Below are positions 41,727 to 49,487 of a DNA stretch of 64,000 nucleotides, piece by piece; the stretch's first letter is position 1, and each line of letters begins with the position of its first letter. The position numbers and the translations under genes are program-made. The DNA lies in the IMG/VR virus record IMGVR_UViG_3300042090_003221, positions 51,812 to 115,811 of that record, one strand, 5' to 3'. Below the pieces are notes generated by a model. The model searched no databases, had not been told where the DNA came from, and worked only from the letters and a program-made list of their open reading frames with translations. This DNA comes from a virus.

Positions 41727-42734
41727 ATGAACGCGCACACGCAGGCCCCTGTCGATCCGTGGTCGCACTGGCGCGACGCTATCGCGGCTCGCAAGCAGGT
41801 CGATATGCCGGTCAACGAGGTCGCGCTCGGCTACTATCGCGCCCGTGATGGTGAGTGCGTTGCGTTCCTGCCTGATGGCGCCGGTCATATCTACGTCTGG
41901 CGCACGAGCGATTGGCCGCCGCCGAAGCATTGGGACGCCGTCGTCGAGCTGTTCGCGAAGGTCTGCCTCCGCCCGGTCAGCCATGAGGACGCGACACATT
42001 ACGGCGAGCACGGCCGCTGGCCGGAGGAGGTCGCGCCCGTCGAGGTCGACGCCTCGCTGCCGCCGCACGAACAGGCGGACGCCAAGATCACTGCGCAGCG
42101 CGCGGCTATGGTGGCGTGGCTCAAGGAAACCGGCGAGATCAAGACGCAGGAGCAAGCGGACAAGTGCGGCAACTTCGCCGACACCTTCCACAAGATCTGG
42201 CAGGAGGCAGAAGCCGCCCGCAAGGCTGAGAAAAAGCCGCACGATGAAGCGGGGGCCGCGGTCCAGAAGAAGTGGGTTCCCGTCGTTGACCGCGCGAATG
42301 AGCTGAAGGTCTACGCGAAGAAGGCCACGGAACCGTTCCTGATCGCCGAGAAGGCGCGCATCGCCGCGGAGGAGAAAGCCGCCGCCGAAGCCCGCGCCAA
42401 GGCCGCGCGCGAGGCCAAGGAGGCCGCCGACGCCGCCGCGATAGCTGCCGCGAGCGCTGCCGCCGCCGCGGGCGAGCCGGCGCCCCTTCCTGTAGCCGCT
42501 CCCGCGCCGGTGTTCGCGCCGCCGCCGCAGAAAGCCAAGGCCGGACGGGTGCATCTGCGCACGCGCACGGTCCATGAGATCACCGATATGCGCAAGTTTC
42601 TCGCGCATCTCGCCGACATGAACGAGATCCCGCGCGAAATCACTGACGCATTCCAGCTGATCGTCAACCGCTGGCGCTTCGCCGGCGTCGAAGTCCCGGG
42701 CGTCGAAGCCAAGACCGTCGAGGGGGCCGCGTAA
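41727..42734 (+). CDS. Coiled-coil phage protein of the recombination module
   Basis: EAARKAEKKPH..AG..VQ motif; upstream of HNH and bet. Confidence 0.6.
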   Translation: MNAHTQAPVDPWSHWRDAIAARKQVDMPVNEVALGYYRARDGECVAFLPDGAGHIYVWRTSDWPPPKHWDAVVELFAKVCLRPVSHEDATHYGEHGRWPEEVAPVEVDASLPPHEQADAKITAQRAAMVAWLKETGEIKTQEQADKCGNFADTFHKIWQEAEAARKAEKKPHDEAGAAVQKKWVPVVDRANELKVYAKKATEPFLIAEKARIAAEEKAAAEARAKAAREAKEAADAAAIAAASAAAAAGEPAPLPVAAPAPVFAPPPQKAKAGRVHLRTRTVHEITDMRKFLAHLADMNEIPREITDAFQLIVNRWRFAGVEVPGVEAKTVEGAA

Positions 42735-42735
42735 G

Positions 42736-43308
42736 GTGAATTCGATCTGCGCTGTCACTAACTGCCAAGGCGTCGTGACGGCGAAGGGCTATTGCGATCG
42801 GCATTACCGACGCTTTCGCGTTCATGGAGACCCGCTCGGTGGCCGAACAGTTCCGGGTGAGCTGACCGCGTTCGTCGAAATGGCGGCGAAGTGCAAAGAC
42901 GAAGAATGCCTCATGTGGCCATTCGGCCGGAATAGCGGCGGATACGGCGTGGTCAAATATCAAGGCAAACAAGACGGGGCGCACAGGGTGATTTGCAAGA
43001 TCGTCAACGGAGCGCCACCGACTCCTGAGCATCAGGCCGCGCATTCTTGCGGGAAGGGCAAAAGCGGCTGTGTAAACGGATCACACCTTCGCTGGGCAAC
43101 TCCGCAAGAAAATTCTGACGACAAGGCTGTTCATCAGACCGTGTCCAGGGGGGAGTCTGTGTTTGGCGCAAAACTCACAGAAACAGACGTCAGGGCAATT
43201 CGATCGACGCCGGGGATAAATCAAAGTGAGATGGCTAAGAAGCTAGGCGTCACAGTGTCTGCGGTGAACTTTGTTGTAACAGGCAAAACATGGAGGCACG
43301 TTCAATGA
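42736..43308 (+). CDS. HNH homing endonuclease
   Basis: C..WP...GYG...AHR...AAHSCG...CVNGSHL.W...EN; C-terminal HTH; lower GC. Confidence 0.85.
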   Translation: MNSICAVTNCQGVVTAKGYCDRHYRRFRVHGDPLGGRTVPGELTAFVEMAAKCKDEECLMWPFGRNSGGYGVVKYQGKQDGAHRVICKIVNGAPPTPEHQAAHSCGKGKSGCVNGSHLRWATPQENSDDKAVHQTVSRGESVFGAKLTETDVRAIRSTPGINQSEMAKKLGVTVSAVNFVVTGKTWRHVQ

Positions 43309-44450
43309 GTAACATCACTACGCTACCCGCCGCACGCAAGGACATTGTGACGAGCGTCTCTTTCAACGATCTGCGCTTGCCGTATCACGAAGCATTCGCC
43401 GATGGGTTCGGAATCGACAACATTCGTTGGAAGGTTTTGATCGACACGGTTTTCCCGACAGCGAAGACGGTCGATTCGATCGCGATGGCTCTTTCCTATT
43501 GCAAACAGCGAAGCCTCGATCCTTTCAAAAAACCGATTCATATCGTGCCGATGTATTCCACCGCTAAGCGTGAATACGTCGAGACGGTCTGGCCCGGGAT
43601 CTCCGAGCTGCGCACCACAGCAACGCGGACGGGCGAATATGCGGGATGCGACGCCGCCGTGTTCGGCCCGACGATCAAGCGCGAGTTCAAAGGCATCGGC
43701 GAGGTCTGGGAAAACCGCCAGAAGGTTGAACGCGAAGTCAGCGTCACCGTCGAATATCCGGAGTGGTGTCAGGTCACCATTCATCGCGCGATCCGCGGGC
43801 AGCGCGTCGCTTTCGTTGGCCCGAAAGTCTTCTGGACTGAGTCCTACGCGCGCCGCGGCAAAGCCGACATTCCGAATGAAATGTGGTGCAAGCGTCCGTT
43901 CGGTCAGATCGAAAAATGCGCCGAGGCCGCCGCGCTGCGCCGCGCCTTTCCCGAGGAAATCGGCAACGAGTACACCGCCGACGAGATGGAAGGGCAGATC
44001 CTGTTCAGCGCGCCCGCGGCCGCTGAGCAGCCGGCGAAGTCGAAGCTCCCCCCGACGCCCCCGCCGCCGGCTTTGGAAAAGCCCCGTCCCGAGACCGACG
44101 AGCGCGCCGAGACGCGCTCGCCTGATGTCGGCGCCGGGAAACCCAAGGTCCCGCCCGGCCCTCCGCCTGTCGTCAGTAGCGGCAGAACGCCTCCGCCTCC
44201 GCCTCCGCCTCCGCCGCCCAGCGCCGGCGCGCCGAAGTCCGACGCGAATCCGGCCGCGCCCTTCAGCTTCGACGCCTACCTGGGCAAGTTCCGCAAGGCT
44301 ATCGTCGCCTCGAATACGCAGGATGAGGCGAACGCCACCTACGACCGCATGGTCCTGAAGGGCGCGTACAAGTTCAGCGACGACGAGACGACCGAATTCG
44401 ACAGCATCCTCTCCGAGGAATGCGAGCGGTTCTGGACGCCGGAGAGCTGA
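43305..44450 (+). CDS. bet: Single-strand annealing recombinase (Bet/RecT family)
   Basis: LDPFKKPIHIVP, GISELRTTATRTGEYAG, QIEKCAEAAALRRAFPE. Confidence 0.88.
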   Translation: MSNITTLPAARKDIVTSVSFNDLRLPYHEAFADGFGIDNIRWKVLIDTVFPTAKTVDSIAMALSYCKQRSLDPFKKPIHIVPMYSTAKREYVETVWPGISELRTTATRTGEYAGCDAAVFGPTIKREFKGIGEVWENRQKVEREVSVTVEYPEWCQVTIHRAIRGQRVAFVGPKVFWTESYARRGKADIPNEMWCKRPFGQIEKCAEAAALRRAFPEEIGNEYTADEMEGQILFSAPAAAEQPAKSKLPPTPPPPALEKPRPETDERAETRSPDVGAGKPKVPPGPPPVVSSGRTPPPPPPPPPPSAGAPKSDANPAAPFSFDAYLGKFRKAIVASNTQDEANATYDRMVLKGAYKFSDDETTEFDSILSEECERFWTPES

Positions 44451-44454
44451 CGCG

Positions 44455-44664
44455 ATGGGGACCACGAGCAAGGAAACGCTCCAAGTCGTGCTGCACAAGC
44501 GGACCGAGAAAGCCGTGCTCGTGAGCACGGACGGCAAGGAGCCGTCCGCGGTCTGGCTCCCGCTGGGCCAGATCGAAATCGAGGACGGAGCGGCAGCCGG
44601 TGACGGAGTCTTTTACGACGTCATTGCGCCTGTCTGGCTTCTCGAAAACAGGGGGCTTATCTGA
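44455..44664 (+). CDS. Small phage protein
   Basis: TEKAVLV...VWLP..QIE...PVWL..RGL. Confidence 0.6.
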   Translation: MGTTSKETLQVVLHKRTEKAVLVSTDGKEPSAVWLPLGQIEIEDGAAAGDGVFYDVIAPVWLLENRGLI

Positions 44665-45089
44665 TGGCGCGCGCCCTGCTCATCCTCGCAAGCGACACCC
44701 AACGCGCCACCGCGCGCCGTTGGCTCGAACAGGCGCCGCCGGGAAGCCGAATCGAGTTCAAAGGTCCGGTACGCACGCTCCCTCAGAGCGCGAAAATGTG
44801 GGCGATGCTCACCGACGTCGCGACGCAGAAAGAGCACTGCGGCCGCAGGTATGTCGCCGACGACTGGAAGATCCTGTTCATGCACGCGCTTGGGCGCGAG
44901 GCTCGCTTCATCCCAGCCCTCGACGGACACGGCTTCATTCCGATCGGCCAAAGCTCGTCGGACCTTTCGAAGGAAGAGATGAGCGACCTGATCGAATTTA
45001 TGACCGCGTGGGGCGCCGAGAAGGGCGTTGAATGGACGGATCCGGCGCTGCCGCCCGGCCTGGAATGCAACCCGAGGGACGCAGCATGA
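44664..45089 (+). CDS. ninB: NinB/Orf family recombination protein
   Basis: RTLPQSAKMWAMLTDVA; WK..F; SSDLSKEEMSDLIEF. Confidence 0.88.
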   Translation: MARALLILASDTQRATARRWLEQAPPGSRIEFKGPVRTLPQSAKMWAMLTDVATQKEHCGRRYVADDWKILFMHALGREARFIPALDGHGFIPIGQSSSDLSKEEMSDLIEFMTAWGAEKGVEWTDPALPPGLECNPRDAA

Positions 45090-45967
45090 ACATGAGAGAG
45101 ACCGTGATGTCGGCTGCGATGAAGGTCGCCTGCGTCGACACCGACGAGGCGCTCTTGCGCTCGATCGCCGTGGCCGAGCTTCAGCGCACCGACGTCAACG
45201 TTTATGCCGCGCTGACGCGCTTCACCAACGAAGTGCGCGGCGCCGGCGGCGTCTTGGCGAAGCTCATCCCCTACGGGGTGACGCGCGACCATGCGCGCGA
45301 ATATCTCAACCGCGTCGCGGCGGACATGCGCGGCGAGGGTGTGGTTCCTGCGAAAGCAGGCGACGGGGTCCGTGAAGGCTATGATAGCCATGGCGTCTTT
45401 GGCCCCGTCGATAATTCGGAAGGTGGAGGGTCCGCCGTCGTCGTGCGAGGCCAGAATACCTATGGCCCTTCGCCTTCCGATTCAGTTCCGGCGCAAGCCG
45501 GCGGGGGAGTCCTGATCGCCGATGAAAGCCACAAGCATTTTGGCTCCCCCGAACAAAGAGAAGACAAAGGGTCCGTTGGCTGTGTGGAAGTCCGGCACGG
45601 GTTTGGCCCCTCGTCTTCTCCCCCCAACAGGAACGGCGCGGTCCACCGCTCGAGTGACAACCGCCAGATGACCTCTGGCCGCGCCGTTCCTGTCCCCAAG
45701 CCTGCGCGCGGTCTGTCCGCGATGAAAGACTACGCTGCGGCGCGAACCTTGTTCGACACCTATCAAACCCGGCAAGGTCCGATTGGCGATCTTGTTTGGT
45801 CCGCGATCCCACGGATCATGTCCGAGAACACGCGTGAGGCCGCGCTGTTGAAGCTGATCTATCAGCACGCGAGGCCGGGCTACGCGAACGCCCGAGTCCG
45901 CGACGTGATCAAAGAAACCGATTTGCAGCGCATGATCAAGAAAGCGGCGGAGATCTCCAATGGTTAA
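45086..45967 (+). CDS. Tas-associated protein whose central linker is encoded by a five-unit guide array
   Basis: Coupled to ninB (ATGA); helical N- and C-terminal parts flank the array at 45361-45693. Confidence 0.65.
   Translation: MNMRETVMSAAMKVACVDTDEALLRSIAVAELQRTDVNVYAALTRFTNEVRGAGGVLAKLIPYGVTRDHAREYLNRVAADMRGEGVVPAKAGDGVREGYDSHGVFGPVDNSEGGGSAVVVRGQNTYGPSPSDSVPAQAGGGVLIADESHKHFGSPEQREDKGSVGCVEVRHGFGPSSSPPNRNGAVHRSSDNRQMTSGRAVPVPKPARGLSAMKDYAAARTLFDTYQTRQGPIGDLVWSAIPRIMSENTREAALLKLIYQHARPGYANARVRDVIKETDLQRMIKKAAEISNG
45361..45693 (+). ncRNA. Stem-loop TIGR-like array, units 1-5
   Basis: Units at 45361-45410, 45416-45480, 45502-45551, 45558-45620, 45627-45693; each is an inverted-repeat stem enclosing CCN-9nt-TG-loop-CCN-9nt-TG. 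Confidence 0.85.
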
Positions 45968-47198
45968 GCGCGCAGCAAAGAATTCTAGCGACGGGTCCGT
46001 GCTTATGCTGGCTTCACGTAAGCCTAGGATGCTGTTGGCCCGCTCGCTGGAAACCAAAACCGATAGCGGCGGGTCCGTTTCGAGAGCGATGGCCGTGAAA
46101 CCCATGGCCTGTCCACTATCGGCTCCCAAATCCAAGAAAACCGCCGACAGCGGGTCCGTAGGTGGCATGCCTCCCGCGAAGGATATGGCCCGCTCGTCGG
46201 CGGCTCCAAAATCCAAGAAAAGCGTCAGCGGCGGGTCCGGAATGTGTTTGAAGGCCAATGATCGTCTGGCCCGTCCGCTGACGCCTCCCGAACTCGACGT
46301 GATATGCACTCAAATCCAAGAGGCCCAAGTAGACCGGAAATACTCGATCCAGACCCAGGCCGGGATTATGCAGCGCCTATCCGCCCTCGCCGTCAGGGCG
46401 TGCGATCTCTCTCACGACGCCAACGAGGCGCAGCGCAAAGCCGCCTGGACGCGAGCGGAGCGCATTGTGAGCCGTGGGCTCAAGGGCGAAGTGCAAGATG
46501 ACGACGATGTCGAAATTGGCGCGACGCTCACCAAGTACTTCAAGATGGCGGCCGCCTCACTGAAGCCGGTCGCCGAATTCCGCAAAGAGATTGAACGGTT
46601 CATGAAGGCGAAGGCGGCACAGCTCCCCGGCTTCGCCATGACCGAGCGTGTCCCCAGCTTCAAGCCACTCGGATTGGCCGTCATCGTTGGCGAAGCCGGG
46701 AACCTCTCGAACTACGCGACCGAGCGCAAGCTCTGGCGGCGCCTTGGCTTCGGCATGGCGCCCGGCCACGAGGAGCATGCCTATTCGACGTGGAGGATGA
46801 TCAAGGGGTTGACAAGCGAGGATTGGACGGCCGCTGGCTACTCGCCAAAGCGCCTCGGCCAGATCTACGGCGTCGTCACGGTCCCGCTCGTCATGCACAA
46901 GGCCAAGAGCAAATATGGCGAGGTCTACGCCAAGCGCCGAGCGCGAACGCTGGAAACGCATCCGGAATGGTATCTCGACAAGAACGGCAAGCCGAAATTC
47001 GACAAGGACGGCAACCCGCGCAGCGCTCACGCGAGCATGGATGCGGCGCGCATCATGACGAAGGAATTGATTTCCGACCTGTGGTCGGAATGGAGGGGGT
47101 CCGTTTATCAGCTGGCGGAAACGCCCGCTTACCTTGTGGCCCCCTCCAAATCCATCCCCGCTGAAACGCGCCGCGTCGAAGAGGAGGAGCTGGTCTGA
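45960..47198 (+). CDS. Nop-domain/IS110-related RNA-binding protein lacking a nuclease domain (TasA-like)
   Basis: Coiled coil, then GLAVIVGEAGNLSNYATERKLWRRLGFG, Y..VY.KR, AHASMDAARIMTKELISDLWSEWR; no DEDD/RuvC or HNH motif seen. Confidence 0.8.
   Translation: MVKRAAKNSSDGSVLMLASRKPRMLLARSLETKTDSGGSVSRAMAVKPMACPLSAPKSKKTADSGSVGGMPPAKDMARSSAAPKSKKSVSGGSGMCLKANDRLARPLTPPELDVICTQIQEAQVDRKYSIQTQAGIMQRLSALAVRACDLSHDANEAQRKAAWTRAERIVSRGLKGEVQDDDDVEIGATLTKYFKMAAASLKPVAEFRKEIERFMKAKAAQLPGFAMTERVPSFKPLGLAVIVGEAGNLSNYATERKLWRRLGFGMAPGHEEHAYSTWRMIKGLTSEDWTAAGYSPKRLGQIYGVVTVPLVMHKAKSKYGEVYAKRRARTLETHPEWYLDKNGKPKFDKDGNPRSAHASMDAARIMTKELISDLWSEWRGSVYQLAETPAYLVAPSKSIPAETRRVEEEELV
45983..46284 (+). ncRNA. 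Stem-loop TIGR-like array, units 6-9
   Basis: Units at 45983-46052, 46060-46122, 46141-46203, 46222-46284; linker CTCC(C/A)AAATCCAAGAAAA repeated. Confidence 0.85.
47091..47148 (+). ncRNA. Solitary TIGR-like unit 10 in the 3' end of the tas gene
   Basis: TGGAGGGGGT-CCG-TTTATCAGC-TG-loop-CCG-CTTACCTTG-TG-GCCCCCTCCA. Confidence 0.8.
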
Positions 47199-47491
47199 TG
47201 ACCGCCCTCACGAGAGTCGTCTGGCGCGAGTGGTTCAACGCGCCGGCCGTCGCCCGAATGACCGAGATGCGCACGCTTCCGCGCGAGGAAGTCGAGCTGA
47301 ACCTCGCGCTCATCCGCGACGGCGCCGATCTCGCCGAGGCTATCGCGGAGGATGCGACGCAGGACGGGTCGGAGCTTTTCCGCTCCGAGACGGAGATCGT
47401 CATTCTCGAGCCGGCTGAATTCGCCGGCACGTACCGGGTCTGCGTCGACTACGAGCCAACCTATACGGCTTTTGCGGCGGATCTGGACTGA
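47198..47491 (+). CDS. Small acidic hypothetical protein
   Basis: TGATG coupling to the tas gene. Confidence 0.6.
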   Translation: MTALTRVVWREWFNAPAVARMTEMRTLPREEVELNLALIRDGADLAEAIAEDATQDGSELFRSETEIVILEPAEFAGTYRVCVDYEPTYTAFAADLD

Positions 47492-47889
47492 TGGCTCGCC
47501 AAGAATTCCGTCAGTCGGTCAAGATCGAGATCCGGTTGCGGGCGACGCGCGACAACGTCGTCTACTGCGAGATATGCGGACTCCCGGCGAAGAAGTGGCA
47601 TATCGACCATATCAAAGCGACCGCGCTCGAGGTCGACAAGAGCAAGCCACTGACTGCCGCTGACGGGCAACTCCTTTGCGCCGGCTCGCGCTTCAGTTGC
47701 CACGGGATCAAGACCGCCGAAGAAGACGTCCCGGCCATCGCGGAAGCAAAGCGCCGTCAGGCGCTACACCTGGGCGTCGAGCCGAAGACACAGAACCCGA
47801 TCAAACAGCGCCCCAAGGCGGAGAAGACGCCGCCGCGCCCGGCCGCTGCAGGCATGAGTGAAATCGCCAGAAGGTTTGGACTGCAATGA
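47491..47889 (+). CDS. HNH-like nuclease
   Basis: CEICG...IDHI...LC...CHGIKT..D..AIAEAKR. Confidence 0.8.
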   Translation: MARQEFRQSVKIEIRLRATRDNVVYCEICGLPAKKWHIDHIKATALEVDKSKPLTAADGQLLCAGSRFSCHGIKTAEEDVPAIAEAKRRQALHLGVEPKTQNPIKQRPKAEKTPPRPAAAGMSEIARRFGLQ

Positions 47890-49487
47890 CGCGCCGTCGC
47901 CCGGTCCATGACGCCCAGCAAGCCGCGGCGATGGTTGATCAGATCCTACGCCTGGGCTACTTCGTGCAAGAATTCTCGGAATATCACGTCCGGATCCAAG
48001 ACGCCGTCGACTTCTGGCCGACGGCCGGGAAATGGCGCGCCCCCAAGGGCTACAAATTTGATCGCGAGGGCGCCGGGCTCTCATCGCTCAAGGACTATCT
48101 CGCGAGATATCACCCGCTTACGGAGACAAACGATGCCCCAAAAGATCAGCCTGACGGAATGTGAGGCCGTGCTTTTGCGCCGGCTTGCTGGTGGCGGAGA
48201 TCCGCTGAAAACAACCTCGAATTCGGTCGCCGTGGCTGCCCTCTACAACCTCGGACTGATCGATATCCGGTCCGTCTACACAATCAACGAACGCGGCGCC
48301 GCCGCGCTGCGTGCGCTGCAAACCGAAGGAGCAAAAGCATGATCAACTTGGTTGCGATTTCCGTCCTATTGCCTGAGATTGACGAGGAAGAGCTCGCGGT
48401 GCGGCTGATTGAGAGCCAAATCGGCTACAAGCGCCCGCCCGACCTCGATGCGAAGCAGCTCATCGCGAAAACACGCGAGGCCTGGGAGTCTGTCGACGCC
48501 GGCCCGTATCCGTTCTTGGATCTGGCGAAGGTCGCCATCGCTTACTGCGGCGAATGCCTGACGAAGGCCAGCCCCGCCGTAGTCGGCGGCGAGGCGGTGC
48601 AATAGTGGCTTACGCCCTCGGCCTGACCGCCCTGGAGGCGGAAGCGAAGCGGCGCTGGGATGATCTGCGGGCTATGCCGCTCGCGTGGATAGATATCGAC
48701 CCGCAAGTGCGGATGCGAAAGATGCAGAGCGTGCTCGACGACGCGCTTCGCGCCGCACCGAAAGGACGATCCCTACGTGATCGAGGCCATGCGGGGCTTG
48801 CCGGCGGTCATCTTTGTCCTGCGCGACAGGAGCAACACGCCGAAATGAACGCCGCGACCAAACCGCAGGCCAGCGCCTGCGTCCGCGAGCGCGGGGGCGG
48901 CCCCTGCCGCCTTGCGATGGCAGGGAATCACAAATGCACGTCCGGCCCGGGCCGGAGCTGCGTCGAGACCTCGACCGAAGAGGCGATCGAGCGCTGCGTC
49001 GCCGCGGCACTGGCGGCGCACCGCTGCCGCAAGCAGCCCTGGGGCCTTCCGGAGATCGCGATCCGGCCGGCTTGGCACACCGAGGCCATCCGCTTGTTCG
49101 ATGCTGGGAGCCACACCCAGCGCGCTTTAGCCGCGCTGTTCGGCAAGGCCCGAGGCTCCGTCAGCTACGCGTTATGCCGGTCCTTGGTGGCGCGTGGACG
49201 ACAGGTGACGTCGTCAGCGAGACGCCTTCACCGTTCTCGCGAATACGCGAGGAAGTGCGCGGCGGCGGCCCGAGAGGCGAGCGCAAATGTCTGACGCCGC
49301 AAGGAAGATCGCGGCGACGCGGGTCACCGAAGCTGCCGAAGACAAGATCCAGCGCGTCCTGCTCGATCTCGACGAGGAGATCGGGCCTCTCGGATTCTGC
49401 ATCGGTTTCGTCGAGGTCGATACGCGCCGATGGAGCCAAATAAAGCCTGAAATCGCGCTCAGCGAGAAGCCAGAAGGAAGCAAATGA
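47886..49487 (+). other. Run of small early phage ORFs (47886-48164, 48133-48342, 48339-48605, about 48845-49294, 49287-49487)
   Basis: Coupled ORFs; no function recognised. Confidence 0.5.

What the first reader, a model, noticed from the sequence alone, without database searches (positions are those of the whole stretch)
45086..47198. The guide arrays are dual-coded inside protein genes
Seen: units 1-5 form the in-frame central linker of ORF 45086-45967 (3' stems read FGP, YGP, FGS, FGP, SGR). Units 6-9 form the N-terminal ~110 codons of the tas ORF, all in the same frame (GSV/GSG), and unit 10 begins right after the conserved DLWSEWR end. No stops occur, and ninB, this ORF, tas and the next ORF overlap at start and stop codons. 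GNRA mini-hairpins (CCTGC-GAAA-GCAGG, CCGGC-GCAA-GCCGG) precede units 1 and 3, and AAATCCA recurs after units 7, 8 and 10 and shortly after unit 9. Inference: guides are cut out of the mRNA, so maturation would destroy the tas message (negative feedback), and spacer change is limited by the need to keep the frame open. The upstream gene may be an undescribed Tas partner.
Basis: partly seen in the sequence, partly recalled or inferred. Interest (0 to 1): 0.85.

Follow-up and report, generated by a model that had tools for sequence, protein, structure and literature searches.

The report
Guide RNAs embedded inside two genes
In this phage, all ten guide-RNA hairpins of a TIGR-Tas DNA-targeting system lie inside protein-coding sequence: five in the flexible linker of a previously undescribed partner gene and five at the ends of the tas gene. 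One transcript would therefore have to serve both as message and as guide precursor.

Summary
Ten stem-loop units (variable outer stem, GGGUCC[A/G], 9-nt spacer A, UG-loop, 9-nt spacer B, UGGCC) lie at 45366-47141 on the + strand and nowhere else in the window. Their outer stems covary across relatives.

The 412-aa ORF is a nuclease-less Tas. Its core (aa 109-386) matches solved TasH/TasR structures. Its N-terminal extension (units 6-9) and its tail (unit 10) are modelled as disordered.

The upstream ORF is one real gene with two folded domains joined by a disordered linker that holds units 1-5.
- Its homologs number 3,949 clusters and lie just upstream of tas in 100 of 117 loci.
- Their linkers run from 14 to over 200 aa.
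- Whole units are gained or lost in frame.

Between the partner stop and the Tas core, the tas frame is open in 36 of 61 loci, against 9 of 122 off-frames. The other loci carry stops there and start tas just before the core. The 3' tail shows no such selection.

Units inside tas were already reported (Xu et al. 2026 preprint). Guide units inside a second, conserved partner gene are not mentioned there or in Faure 2025. Feedback through mRNA processing remains untested. No RNA data were available.

The parts
44664..45089 (+). ninB gene. Its stop overlaps the partner gene's start (ATGA). It is context only.
   Evidence: Pfam NinB, E 1.4e-28. It is not conserved next to tas in other loci.
45086..45967 (+). 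Partner gene, 293 aa. N-terminal helical domain about aa 1-88 (45086-45349). Disordered linker about aa 89-205 (45350-45700), which holds units 1-5. C-terminal domain about aa 206-293 (45701-45964).
   Evidence: AF2 gives pLDDT above 90 for aa 20-85 and 220-292, and below 50 for the linker. The N and C domains share one stop-free ORF in 82 loci and lie in different ORFs in 3. The family has 3,949 cluster representatives, mostly matched as one stretch across both domains. The gene lies upstream of tas in 100 of 117 unique loci.
45347..45360 (+). GNRA mini-hairpin CCUGC-GAAA-GCAGG, just before unit 1.
   Evidence: It appears in the MFE fold. L117 has CCCGC-GAAA-GCGGG, a compensatory change.
45366..45404 (+). 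Unit 1 core, 39 nt. Spacers UGAAGGCUA and UGGCGUCUU. The outer stem adds about 6 nt on each side.
   Evidence: Covariance model 56.3 bits. Parse.
45428..45467 (+). Unit 2 core, 40 nt, with a long outer stem.
   Evidence: Covariance model 25.4 bits, E 0.003, not a training sequence. Fold.
45488..45501 (+). GNRA mini-hairpin CCGGC-GCAA-GCCGG, just before unit 3.
   Evidence: L117 and L037 have CCGUC-GCGA-GACGG, a compensatory change in the stem with a loop that is still GNRA.
45507..45545 (+). Unit 3 core, 39 nt, with the GAGUCC anchor variant.
   Evidence: Covariance model 48.5 bits. The same variant sits at the same place in L117 and L037.
45569..45608 (+). Unit 4 core, 40 nt.
   Evidence: Covariance model 18.1 bits, E 0.1. 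The outer stem is conserved in L117 and L037.
45639..45680 (+). Unit 5 core, 42 nt. Its 15-bp perfect outer stem is 45627-45641 with 45679-45693.
   Evidence: Inverted repeat I3. Covariance model 28 bits, E 8e-4. Unit 5 is absent from L117 as an in-frame 66-nt gap and present in L037.
45960..47198 (+). tasA ORF, 412 aa. Disordered N-terminal extension aa 1-108 (units 6-9). Folded core aa 109-386. Tail aa 387-412 (unit 10).
   Evidence: AF2 gives core pLDDT about 97 and below 50 for the extension. The top 10 Foldseek hits in the PDB are all TasH or TasR chains, probability 1.0. An SD-like GGAG lies 7 nt before ATG 45960, and no SD-preceded start lies near the core.
45993..46040 (+). Unit 6 core, 48 nt. 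Its loop carries an extra hairpin, GGCUU-CACGU-AAGCC.
   Evidence: Anchors and outer stem. Fold. The covariance model missed it.
46071..46109 (+). Unit 7 core, 39 nt.
   Evidence: Covariance model 32.3 bits.
46152..46190 (+). Unit 8 core, 39 nt.
   Evidence: Covariance model 32.4 bits.
46233..46271 (+). Unit 9 core, 39 nt. Its outer stem is 46222-46241 with 46265-46284.
   Evidence: Covariance model 39.5 bits. Inverted repeat I1.
47097..47141 (+). Unit 10 core, 45 nt. Its loop carries the hairpin GGCG-GAAA-CGCC. It lies in the tas 3' tail, right after DLWSEWR.
   Evidence: Covariance model 30 bits, E 3e-4, not a training sequence. Homologs carry WRGS...LAPA at the same place.
46128..46140 (+). 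A-rich linker motif AAAUCCAAGAAAA between units. It recurs at 46209, at 46312 (read in another frame) and at 47148.
   Evidence: The same nucleotides read KSKK in homologs P0003-P0006.
47198..47491 (+). Next ORF, 97 aa, whose start overlaps the tas stop. It is not part of the conserved module.
   Evidence: No homolog next to tas in the 196 fetched loci (L001-L196).

Best explanation
This is a phage-borne stem-loop TIGR-TasA module made of two conserved genes, a two-domain partner gene and tasA. All ten guide units lie inside translated sequence.

- Units 1-5 form the disordered linker between the partner protein's two folded domains. They must be translated whenever full-length partner protein is made.
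- Units 6-9 form a disordered N-terminal extension of TasA. Translation most likely starts at ATG 45960, coupled to the partner gene's stop.
- Unit 10 is read through in the TasA tail until the first stop.

Shown here:
- The units are structured RNAs.
- The partner is a single gene.
- The partner gene and tas are conserved neighbours.
- Whole units are gained and lost in frame.
- The partner linker and, in most loci, the tas 5' extension are kept open.
- The loop's conserved UGA forbids one of the three reading phases.

Inferred:
- No promoter-like or terminator-like site was found on this strand, so one polycistronic transcript probably serves as both mRNA and pre-tigRNA.
- Each transcript would then yield either proteins or guides.
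- Tas binding or RNase cleavage at the A-rich linkers would cut off partner and Tas synthesis, which is negative feedback.
- TasA with its guides probably acts as an RNA-guided DNA binder or repressor against other mobile elements. No target was found in the phage's own 115.8-kb contig.
For: Units:
- The outer stem is paired in 91% of cells, against 38-52% when the partner columns are slid.
- There are 84 double-change cells, and 0 of 500 shuffles reach the observed covariation score.
- Covariance-model hits lie only in this stretch of the window. In relatives they lie almost only on the tas strand, beside tas.

Tas identity:
- The ten best Foldseek hits are TasH or TasR cryo-EM chains, followed by IS621 and Nop5.

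Partner is one gene:
- The two domains share one ORF in 82 loci and lie in different ORFs in 3.
- Homologs with 14-35 aa linkers have no room for several units.
- In 35 unique loci with long linkers, the off-frames are open in only 20 of 70 cases.
- Most of the 150 listed representatives, 167-428 aa long, match as one stretch across both domains.

In-frame gain and loss of units:
- L117 lacks unit 5, L037/P0070 lacks units 1-2, and P0069 lacks units 3-4.
- Stems are conserved and spacers are all different.

tas 5' extension:
- The tas frame is open in 36 of 61 loci, against 9 of 122 off-frames (Fisher 8e-14).
- W, L117, L037 and L042 have an SD-preceded ATG at the partner stop and no SD-preceded start near the core.

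Disorder:
- The array-encoded segments are modelled as disordered.
Against: - No RNA or protein data exist for this phage. Translation through the arrays, co-transcription and processing are all inferred.
- Four of the ten closely inspected relatives (L054, L047, L048, L038) carry stops in the array between the partner gene and tas, and have an SD-preceded start just before the core. Tas therefore does not need the extension.
- L045 keeps the frame open but also has an SD-preceded ATG near the core.
- GC3 in the array segments is 0.64-0.67, against 0.74-0.86 in the folded domains, so codon usage gives no support for translation.
- The tas 3' tail is no more open than the off-frames.
- The partner has no recognisable fold or family, so its role is unknown.
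Confidence: 0.72

Rival explanations
1. Only the partner gene is truly dual-coded. In this phage tas starts inside or after unit 9 (ATG 46242, TTG 46248 or GTG 46299). Units 6-9 would then be a 5' leader whose open frame is not used.
For: About 40% of related loci have stops in this array and start tas just before the core. The window's own gene call in the protein collection starts at M24, not at ATG 45960. GC3 in the extension is low.
Against: None of the internal starts close to the core (46242, 46248, 46299) has an SD-like motif; the only internal start that does is TTG 46035 inside unit 6, still upstream of units 7-9. GTG 46299 would remove the first five residues of the modelled helix. 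ATG 45960 has GGAG at -7 and overlaps the partner stop, as in L117, L037 and L042. Across the family the tas frame is open about eight times as often as the off-frames.
Confidence: 0.2
2. The embedded units are relics or purely structural RNA, or are transcribed from internal promoters, and are not cut from the mRNA. Coding and guide functions would then not compete.
For: The preprint leaves open whether intragenic tigRNAs come from a long transcript or from promoters inside tas. Several units here have degenerate loops: U2, U4 and U8 lack the UGA.
Against: No sigma-70-like promoter is found in 42500-48500, but this scan is weak. Stems are kept by compensatory change while spacers turn over completely between relatives. 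That pattern points to working guides rather than relics.
Confidence: 0.1
3. The repeats are a repetitive low-complexity protein linker, and the RNA hairpins or open frames are by-products of high G+C.
For: The window has 65% G+C, and long spurious ORFs are common in it.
Against: The same units occur between genes with stops in all or varying frames (L054, L045, L047, L048). They are read in two different phases. Their stems covary. Off-frames are open in only 7-29% of cases.
Confidence: 0.03

Closest known systems
Intragenic stem-loop tigRNAs inside tas (Xu et al. 2026, bioRxiv 10.64898/2026.09.09.750476; BlTasA small-RNA sequencing)
   Same: Stem-loop units lie at the 5' end, 3' end or inside tas without breaking the frame. 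They fall in disordered segments. A link between maturation and translation is proposed.
   Different: Here half of the units lie in a second, non-tas gene, a conserved two-domain partner. That paper's text mentions no such gene and no such host for units. Here all ten units are coding and none is intergenic.
Stem-loop TIGR-TasA arrays (Faure et al. 2025, Science, PMC12045711)
   Same: Tandem hairpin units, each with two short spacers flanked by short conserved motifs, lie beside a nuclease-less Nop-domain protein of phage origin.
   Different: That paper describes arrays as intergenic subarrays. It reports no clear protein partner for TasA apart from an occasional ParB-like gene. The partner here has no ParB match.
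Box C/D snoRNAs hosted in protein-coding genes of eukaryotes (general knowledge, not tested here)
   Same: Guide RNAs that bind a Nop-domain protein are released from the transcript of a protein-coding host gene.
   Different: snoRNAs lie in introns, so message and guide can both come from one transcript. Here the units lie in translated sequence, so one RNA molecule can hardly give both.
Archaeal L7Ae autoregulation through a kink-turn in its own mRNA leader (general knowledge, not tested here)
   Same: An RNA-binding protein of the box C/D machinery could repress its own message by binding its cognate RNA motif in it.
   Different: There it is a single motif in an untranslated leader. Here there are ten guide units inside coding sequence, and any feedback is only inferred.

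Membership tests
Stem-loop TIGR array | Tandem units on the tas strand, next to a tas gene | tested here: met
   Ten units lie at 45366-47141 on the + strand, within and beside tas, and nowhere else in the window.
Stem-loop TIGR array | Each unit is closed by a variable palindromic stem | tested here: met
   The outer stem is 91% paired, with 7 of 11 pairs changed on both sides. 0 of 500 shuffles reach the score. Folds.
Stem-loop TIGR array | Two spacers of 8-12 nt per unit, flanked by short conserved motifs | tested here: met
   Every unit parses as GGGUCC[A/G] + 9 nt + UG-loop + 9 nt + UGGCC. Spacers differ completely between relatives.
Stem-loop TIGR array | Units are expressed and processed into Tas-bound tigRNAs | not testable with these tools
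   No RNA run holds this sequence.
Tas protein (TasA type) | Coiled-coil plus Nop-type C-terminal RNA-binding fold | tested here: met
   AF2 core pLDDT is about 97. The ten best Foldseek hits in the PDB are TasH or TasR chains (E 4e-4 to 4e-3, probability 1.0, TM by target up to 0.65), followed by IS621 and Nop5.
Tas protein (TasA type) | Sequence match to the Pfam Nop domain | tested here: not met
   No Pfam family at E 0.01 and no PDB sequence match. Membership rests on fold and context.
Tas protein (TasA type) | No HNH or RuvC nuclease domain | tested here: met
   Residues 1-108 are disordered and array-encoded. No nuclease family is found. A separate HNH gene lies two genes downstream.
TasParB-TasA operon | A ParB-like gene in an operon with tasA | tested here: not met
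   The partner and 62 homologs have no ParB match in Pfam.
Canonical box C/D sRNA | Box C (RUGAUGA) and box D (CUGA) motifs that form kink-turns | tested here: inconclusive
   The loop carries a (C/U)UGA like box D'. No RUGAUGA is seen, and the terminal anchors pair as an ordinary helix with a bulged U. No Rfam family matches.

The most novel reading that the evidence does not exclude
The partner is an obligate accessory subunit of this TasA clade, and its interdomain linker is an expandable, in-frame landing pad for guide units. Partner and Tas can only be made from unprocessed transcripts, and guides only from processed ones. The module would then set its own protein-to-guide ratio from a single transcript. 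New guides would be acquired under a no-stop, phase-restricted rule.
Probability: 0.3. Interest if true: 0.8.

Novelty: new variant of a known kind. Interest (0 to 1): 0.62.

Why it matters
TIGR-Tas is a young field, and how stem-loop tigRNAs are made and regulated is still open. This locus is an extreme, fully coding case of intragenic guides.

It also brings to light a large unannotated protein family (3,949 clusters at 50% identity). This family accompanies one TasA clade in 85% of loci and carries guides in its linker. Earlier work reported no clear protein partner for TasA.

Two questions become directly testable:
- Does guide maturation compete with translation of the effector genes?
- Does this TasA clade need an accessory protein?

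The no-stop and forbidden-phase rules would also limit which spacers can exist in embedded units.

Tried and rejected
- The search for related loci with the wide partner alignment found no stretch conserved enough to search with. The narrow alignment only brought back contigs already held. The reverse question, whether every partner gene has a tas next to it, therefore stays untested.

RNA evidence:
- No RNA holder is listed.
- Laying two wetland DNA metagenomes gave only identical contigs, with no variants or indels.

Targets:
- Searching both spacer arrangements with gaps of 0-3 nt in the 115.8-kb contig gave only chance-level hits: one with 2 mismatches and the rest with 3.

Partner identity gave nothing usable:
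- Pfam and PHROGs.
- Foldseek against the PDB, best E 1.6.
- VIA wide search, best Z 6.9, generic helical bundles covering the N domain only.
- ESM Atlas.

Other checks that gave nothing:
- Rfam: no family.
- Promoter and terminator scan: nothing on the + strand.
- GC3 periodicity does not tell translated from untranslated array sequence.
- The tas frame after the core is no more open than the off-frames.

A cultured Rhizobium phage (RHph_X2_25) holds only a distant version, with a weak partner match and no clear units.

The reading that the units are protein repeats, and the reading that the ORFs are G+C artefacts, were both considered and rejected (see the rival explanations).
Full report
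**What is there**

The stretch 45086-47198 holds two overlapping ORFs on the + strand. They lie in a run of translationally coupled early phage genes (RecT, a 69-aa ORF, NinB, ORF 45086-45967, ORF 45960-47198, a 97-aa ORF, then HNH).

Eight of the ten GGGTCCG heptamers of the 64-kb window lie in this stretch. Each opens a 39-48-nt core that ends in UGGCC. All ten cores parse the same way: GGGUCC[A/G], a variable 9-mer, a loop of 9-18 nt that starts with UG (consensus in relatives: UGA[A/C]AGCCA), a second variable 9-mer, then UGGCC. Each core is closed by an outer stem whose sequence differs from unit to unit.

**The units are structured RNAs**

I took 39 units from this window and nine related loci and tested the outer stem.
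- It is paired in 91% of cells, against 38-52% when the 3' partner is slid by 1-3 columns.
- 84 cells have changes on both sides.
- None of 500 shuffles reaches the observed covariation score.

A covariance model built from these units finds nine of the ten window units, four of which were not training sequences. Nothing elsewhere in the window scores below E 0.38. In the 196 related loci its hits lie almost only on the tas strand, next to tas.

Both arrays fold into rows of separate hairpins joined by single-stranded A-rich linkers, with z = -5.7 and -4.2. The two GNRA mini-hairpins are kept in relatives through compensatory changes. No Rfam family matches.

**The 412-aa ORF is a nuclease-less Tas**

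It has no Pfam match and no PDB sequence match. An AlphaFold model built from 63 homologs gives pLDDT of about 97 for aa 109-386. It gives below 50 for aa 1-108 (units 6-9) and about 50-60 for the tail (unit 10). The ten best Foldseek matches in the PDB are all TasH or TasR cryo-EM chains (probability 1.0). IS621 recombinase and Nop5 follow.

The architecture agrees with the stem-loop TIGR arrays of Faure et al. 2025 (PMC12045711).

**The upstream ORF is one real gene, and it is a conserved companion of tas**

- Its N-terminal part (aa 1-88) and C-terminal part (aa 206-293) are found in the same stop-free ORF in 82 fetched loci and in different ORFs in 3.
- The linker between them ranges from 14 to 118 aa, and this window has the longest. 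Relatives with 14-35 aa linkers show that the two parts belong to one protein.
- AlphaFold models two confident domains joined by a disordered linker.
- A profile search of 1.84 billion cluster representatives finds 3,949 members (2,064 at E 1e-10 or better). Nearly all match as one stretch across both domains, in proteins of 167-428 aa. One of them, 428 aa long, has about nine unit-like repeats in its linker.
- The gene ends within 1 kb upstream of the tas core in 100 of 117 unique loci that have enough flank. The other neighbours of tas are not conserved.
- The partner has no Pfam, PHROG, PDB-fold or Atlas match. It is not ParB-like.

**Dual coding in the partner linker**

In close relatives the stems and the sequences between units are conserved, while every spacer differs. 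Whole units are present or absent with the frame kept.
- L117 lacks unit 5.
- L037/P0070 lacks units 1-2.
- P0069 lacks units 3-4.
- P0065-P0068 and P0118 keep all five.

In 35 unique loci with linkers of 40 aa or more, the other two frames are open across the linker in only 20 of 70 cases. A more distant relative, L119 (Tas 39% identical), also folds its linker into four long-stem hairpins, with z = -5.7.

The same kind of unit also occurs between genes, with stops in all or varying frames (L054, L045, L047, L048). The units are therefore RNA elements first, and they are tolerated in coding sequence.

**A phase rule**

The loop's conserved UGA closes one of the three reading phases.
- Units in the partner gene are read as GG|GUC|C in 20 of 23 cases.
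- Units in tas are read as GGG|UCC in 13 of 17 cases.

**The tas 5' extension**

I looked at unique loci with at least 60 nt between the partner stop and the conserved Tas core. The tas frame is open over the whole gap in 36 of 61 loci. The off-frames are open in 9 of 122 (Fisher 8e-14). For gaps of 220 nt or more the figures are 24 of 44 against 4 of 88.

The frame is therefore kept open by selection in most loci, but not in all. L054, L047, L048 and L038 carry stops in these units and have an SD-preceded start just before the core.

In this window the only start near or upstream of the first units with an SD-like motif is ATG 45960, which overlaps the partner stop. L117, L037 and L042 are built the same way. 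Among the internal starts only TTG 46035, inside unit 6, has an SD-like match. No in-frame start lies between 46248 and 46299, and GVG-type start GTG 46299 has no SD and would shorten the first helix.

I put the odds that units 6-9 are translated here at about 0.7.

**The tas 3' tail**

Unit 10 lies between the end of the core and the first stop, so it is read whenever tas is translated. Across 140 loci, however, the tas frame after the core is no more open than the off-frames. About half of the close relatives place the stop before the unit. This embedding looks incidental.

**What is inferred, not shown**

No promoter-like or terminator-like site lies on the + strand (a weak test), so one transcript probably carries both genes and all ten units. 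If the units are cut out, as shown for other stem-loop loci, each transcript gives either proteins or guides. That would act as negative feedback.

No RNA data exist for this phage. No target of the 18-nt spacer pairs lies in the 115.8-kb contig. Spacers have 51% G+C, against 65% for the window.

**Novelty**

Xu et al. 2026 (bioRxiv 10.64898/2026.09.09.750476) already report stem-loop tigRNAs inside tas at the 5' end, 3' end or internally. They note that the frame is kept, that the units fall in disordered segments, and that maturation may be linked to translation. That part of the finding is known.

That paper and Faure et al. 2025 do not mention a conserved two-domain partner gene or guide units hosted in a non-tas gene. 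I rate the finding a new variant of a known kind.

Partner-Tas binding and the reverse association from partner to tas could therefore not be tested.

Noticed in passing
window 46128-46140, 46209-46221, 46312-46318, 47148-47154: The linker motif AAAUCCA(AGAAAA) follows units 7, 8, 9 and 10. At 46312 it is read in a different frame, inside the conserved Tas core. In homologs P0003-P0006 the same nucleotides read KSKK. It may be a processing site. AAATCCA is also over-represented in the whole window, 16 matches against 3.65 expected.
   Followed up: partly
window 47491-47889: A free-standing HNH endonuclease gene lies two genes downstream of the nuclease-less tasA. HNH homologs also lie about 1.5-2 kb upstream of tas in L054 and L042. 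No link to Tas was tested.
   Followed up: partly
L010, L031, L062: In three loci the partner's N and C domains lie in different frames. These could be frameshifts in the array, assembly errors or pseudogenes. They were not examined.
   Followed up: no
L145:4235-4945, L150:4016-4723: In two loci the partner-like gene lies downstream of tas instead of upstream.
   Followed up: no
P0190 (428 aa partner homolog): This is the longest partner found. Its linker of about 250 aa carries about nine unit-like repeats.
   Followed up: partly
L197 (Rhizobium phage RHph_X2_25, MW960032.1, 23652-25718): A cultured phage with a known host has a distant Tas-like gene (28% identity). Before it lie a weakly partner-like 199-aa gene (hhalign probability 68%) and a 412-nt gap. 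No clear units were found with this model. It could serve as an experimental system for the wider family.
   Followed up: partly
window 45993-46040 and 47097-47141: Units 6 and 10 carry an extra small hairpin inside the loop between the two spacers. This recalls the stem between spacers that the preprint describes for some stem-loop tigRNAs.
   Followed up: no
window 44600-47600: The sequence comes from a wetland metagenome. A second wetland sample from another study holds identical fragments at low depth.
   Followed up: yes
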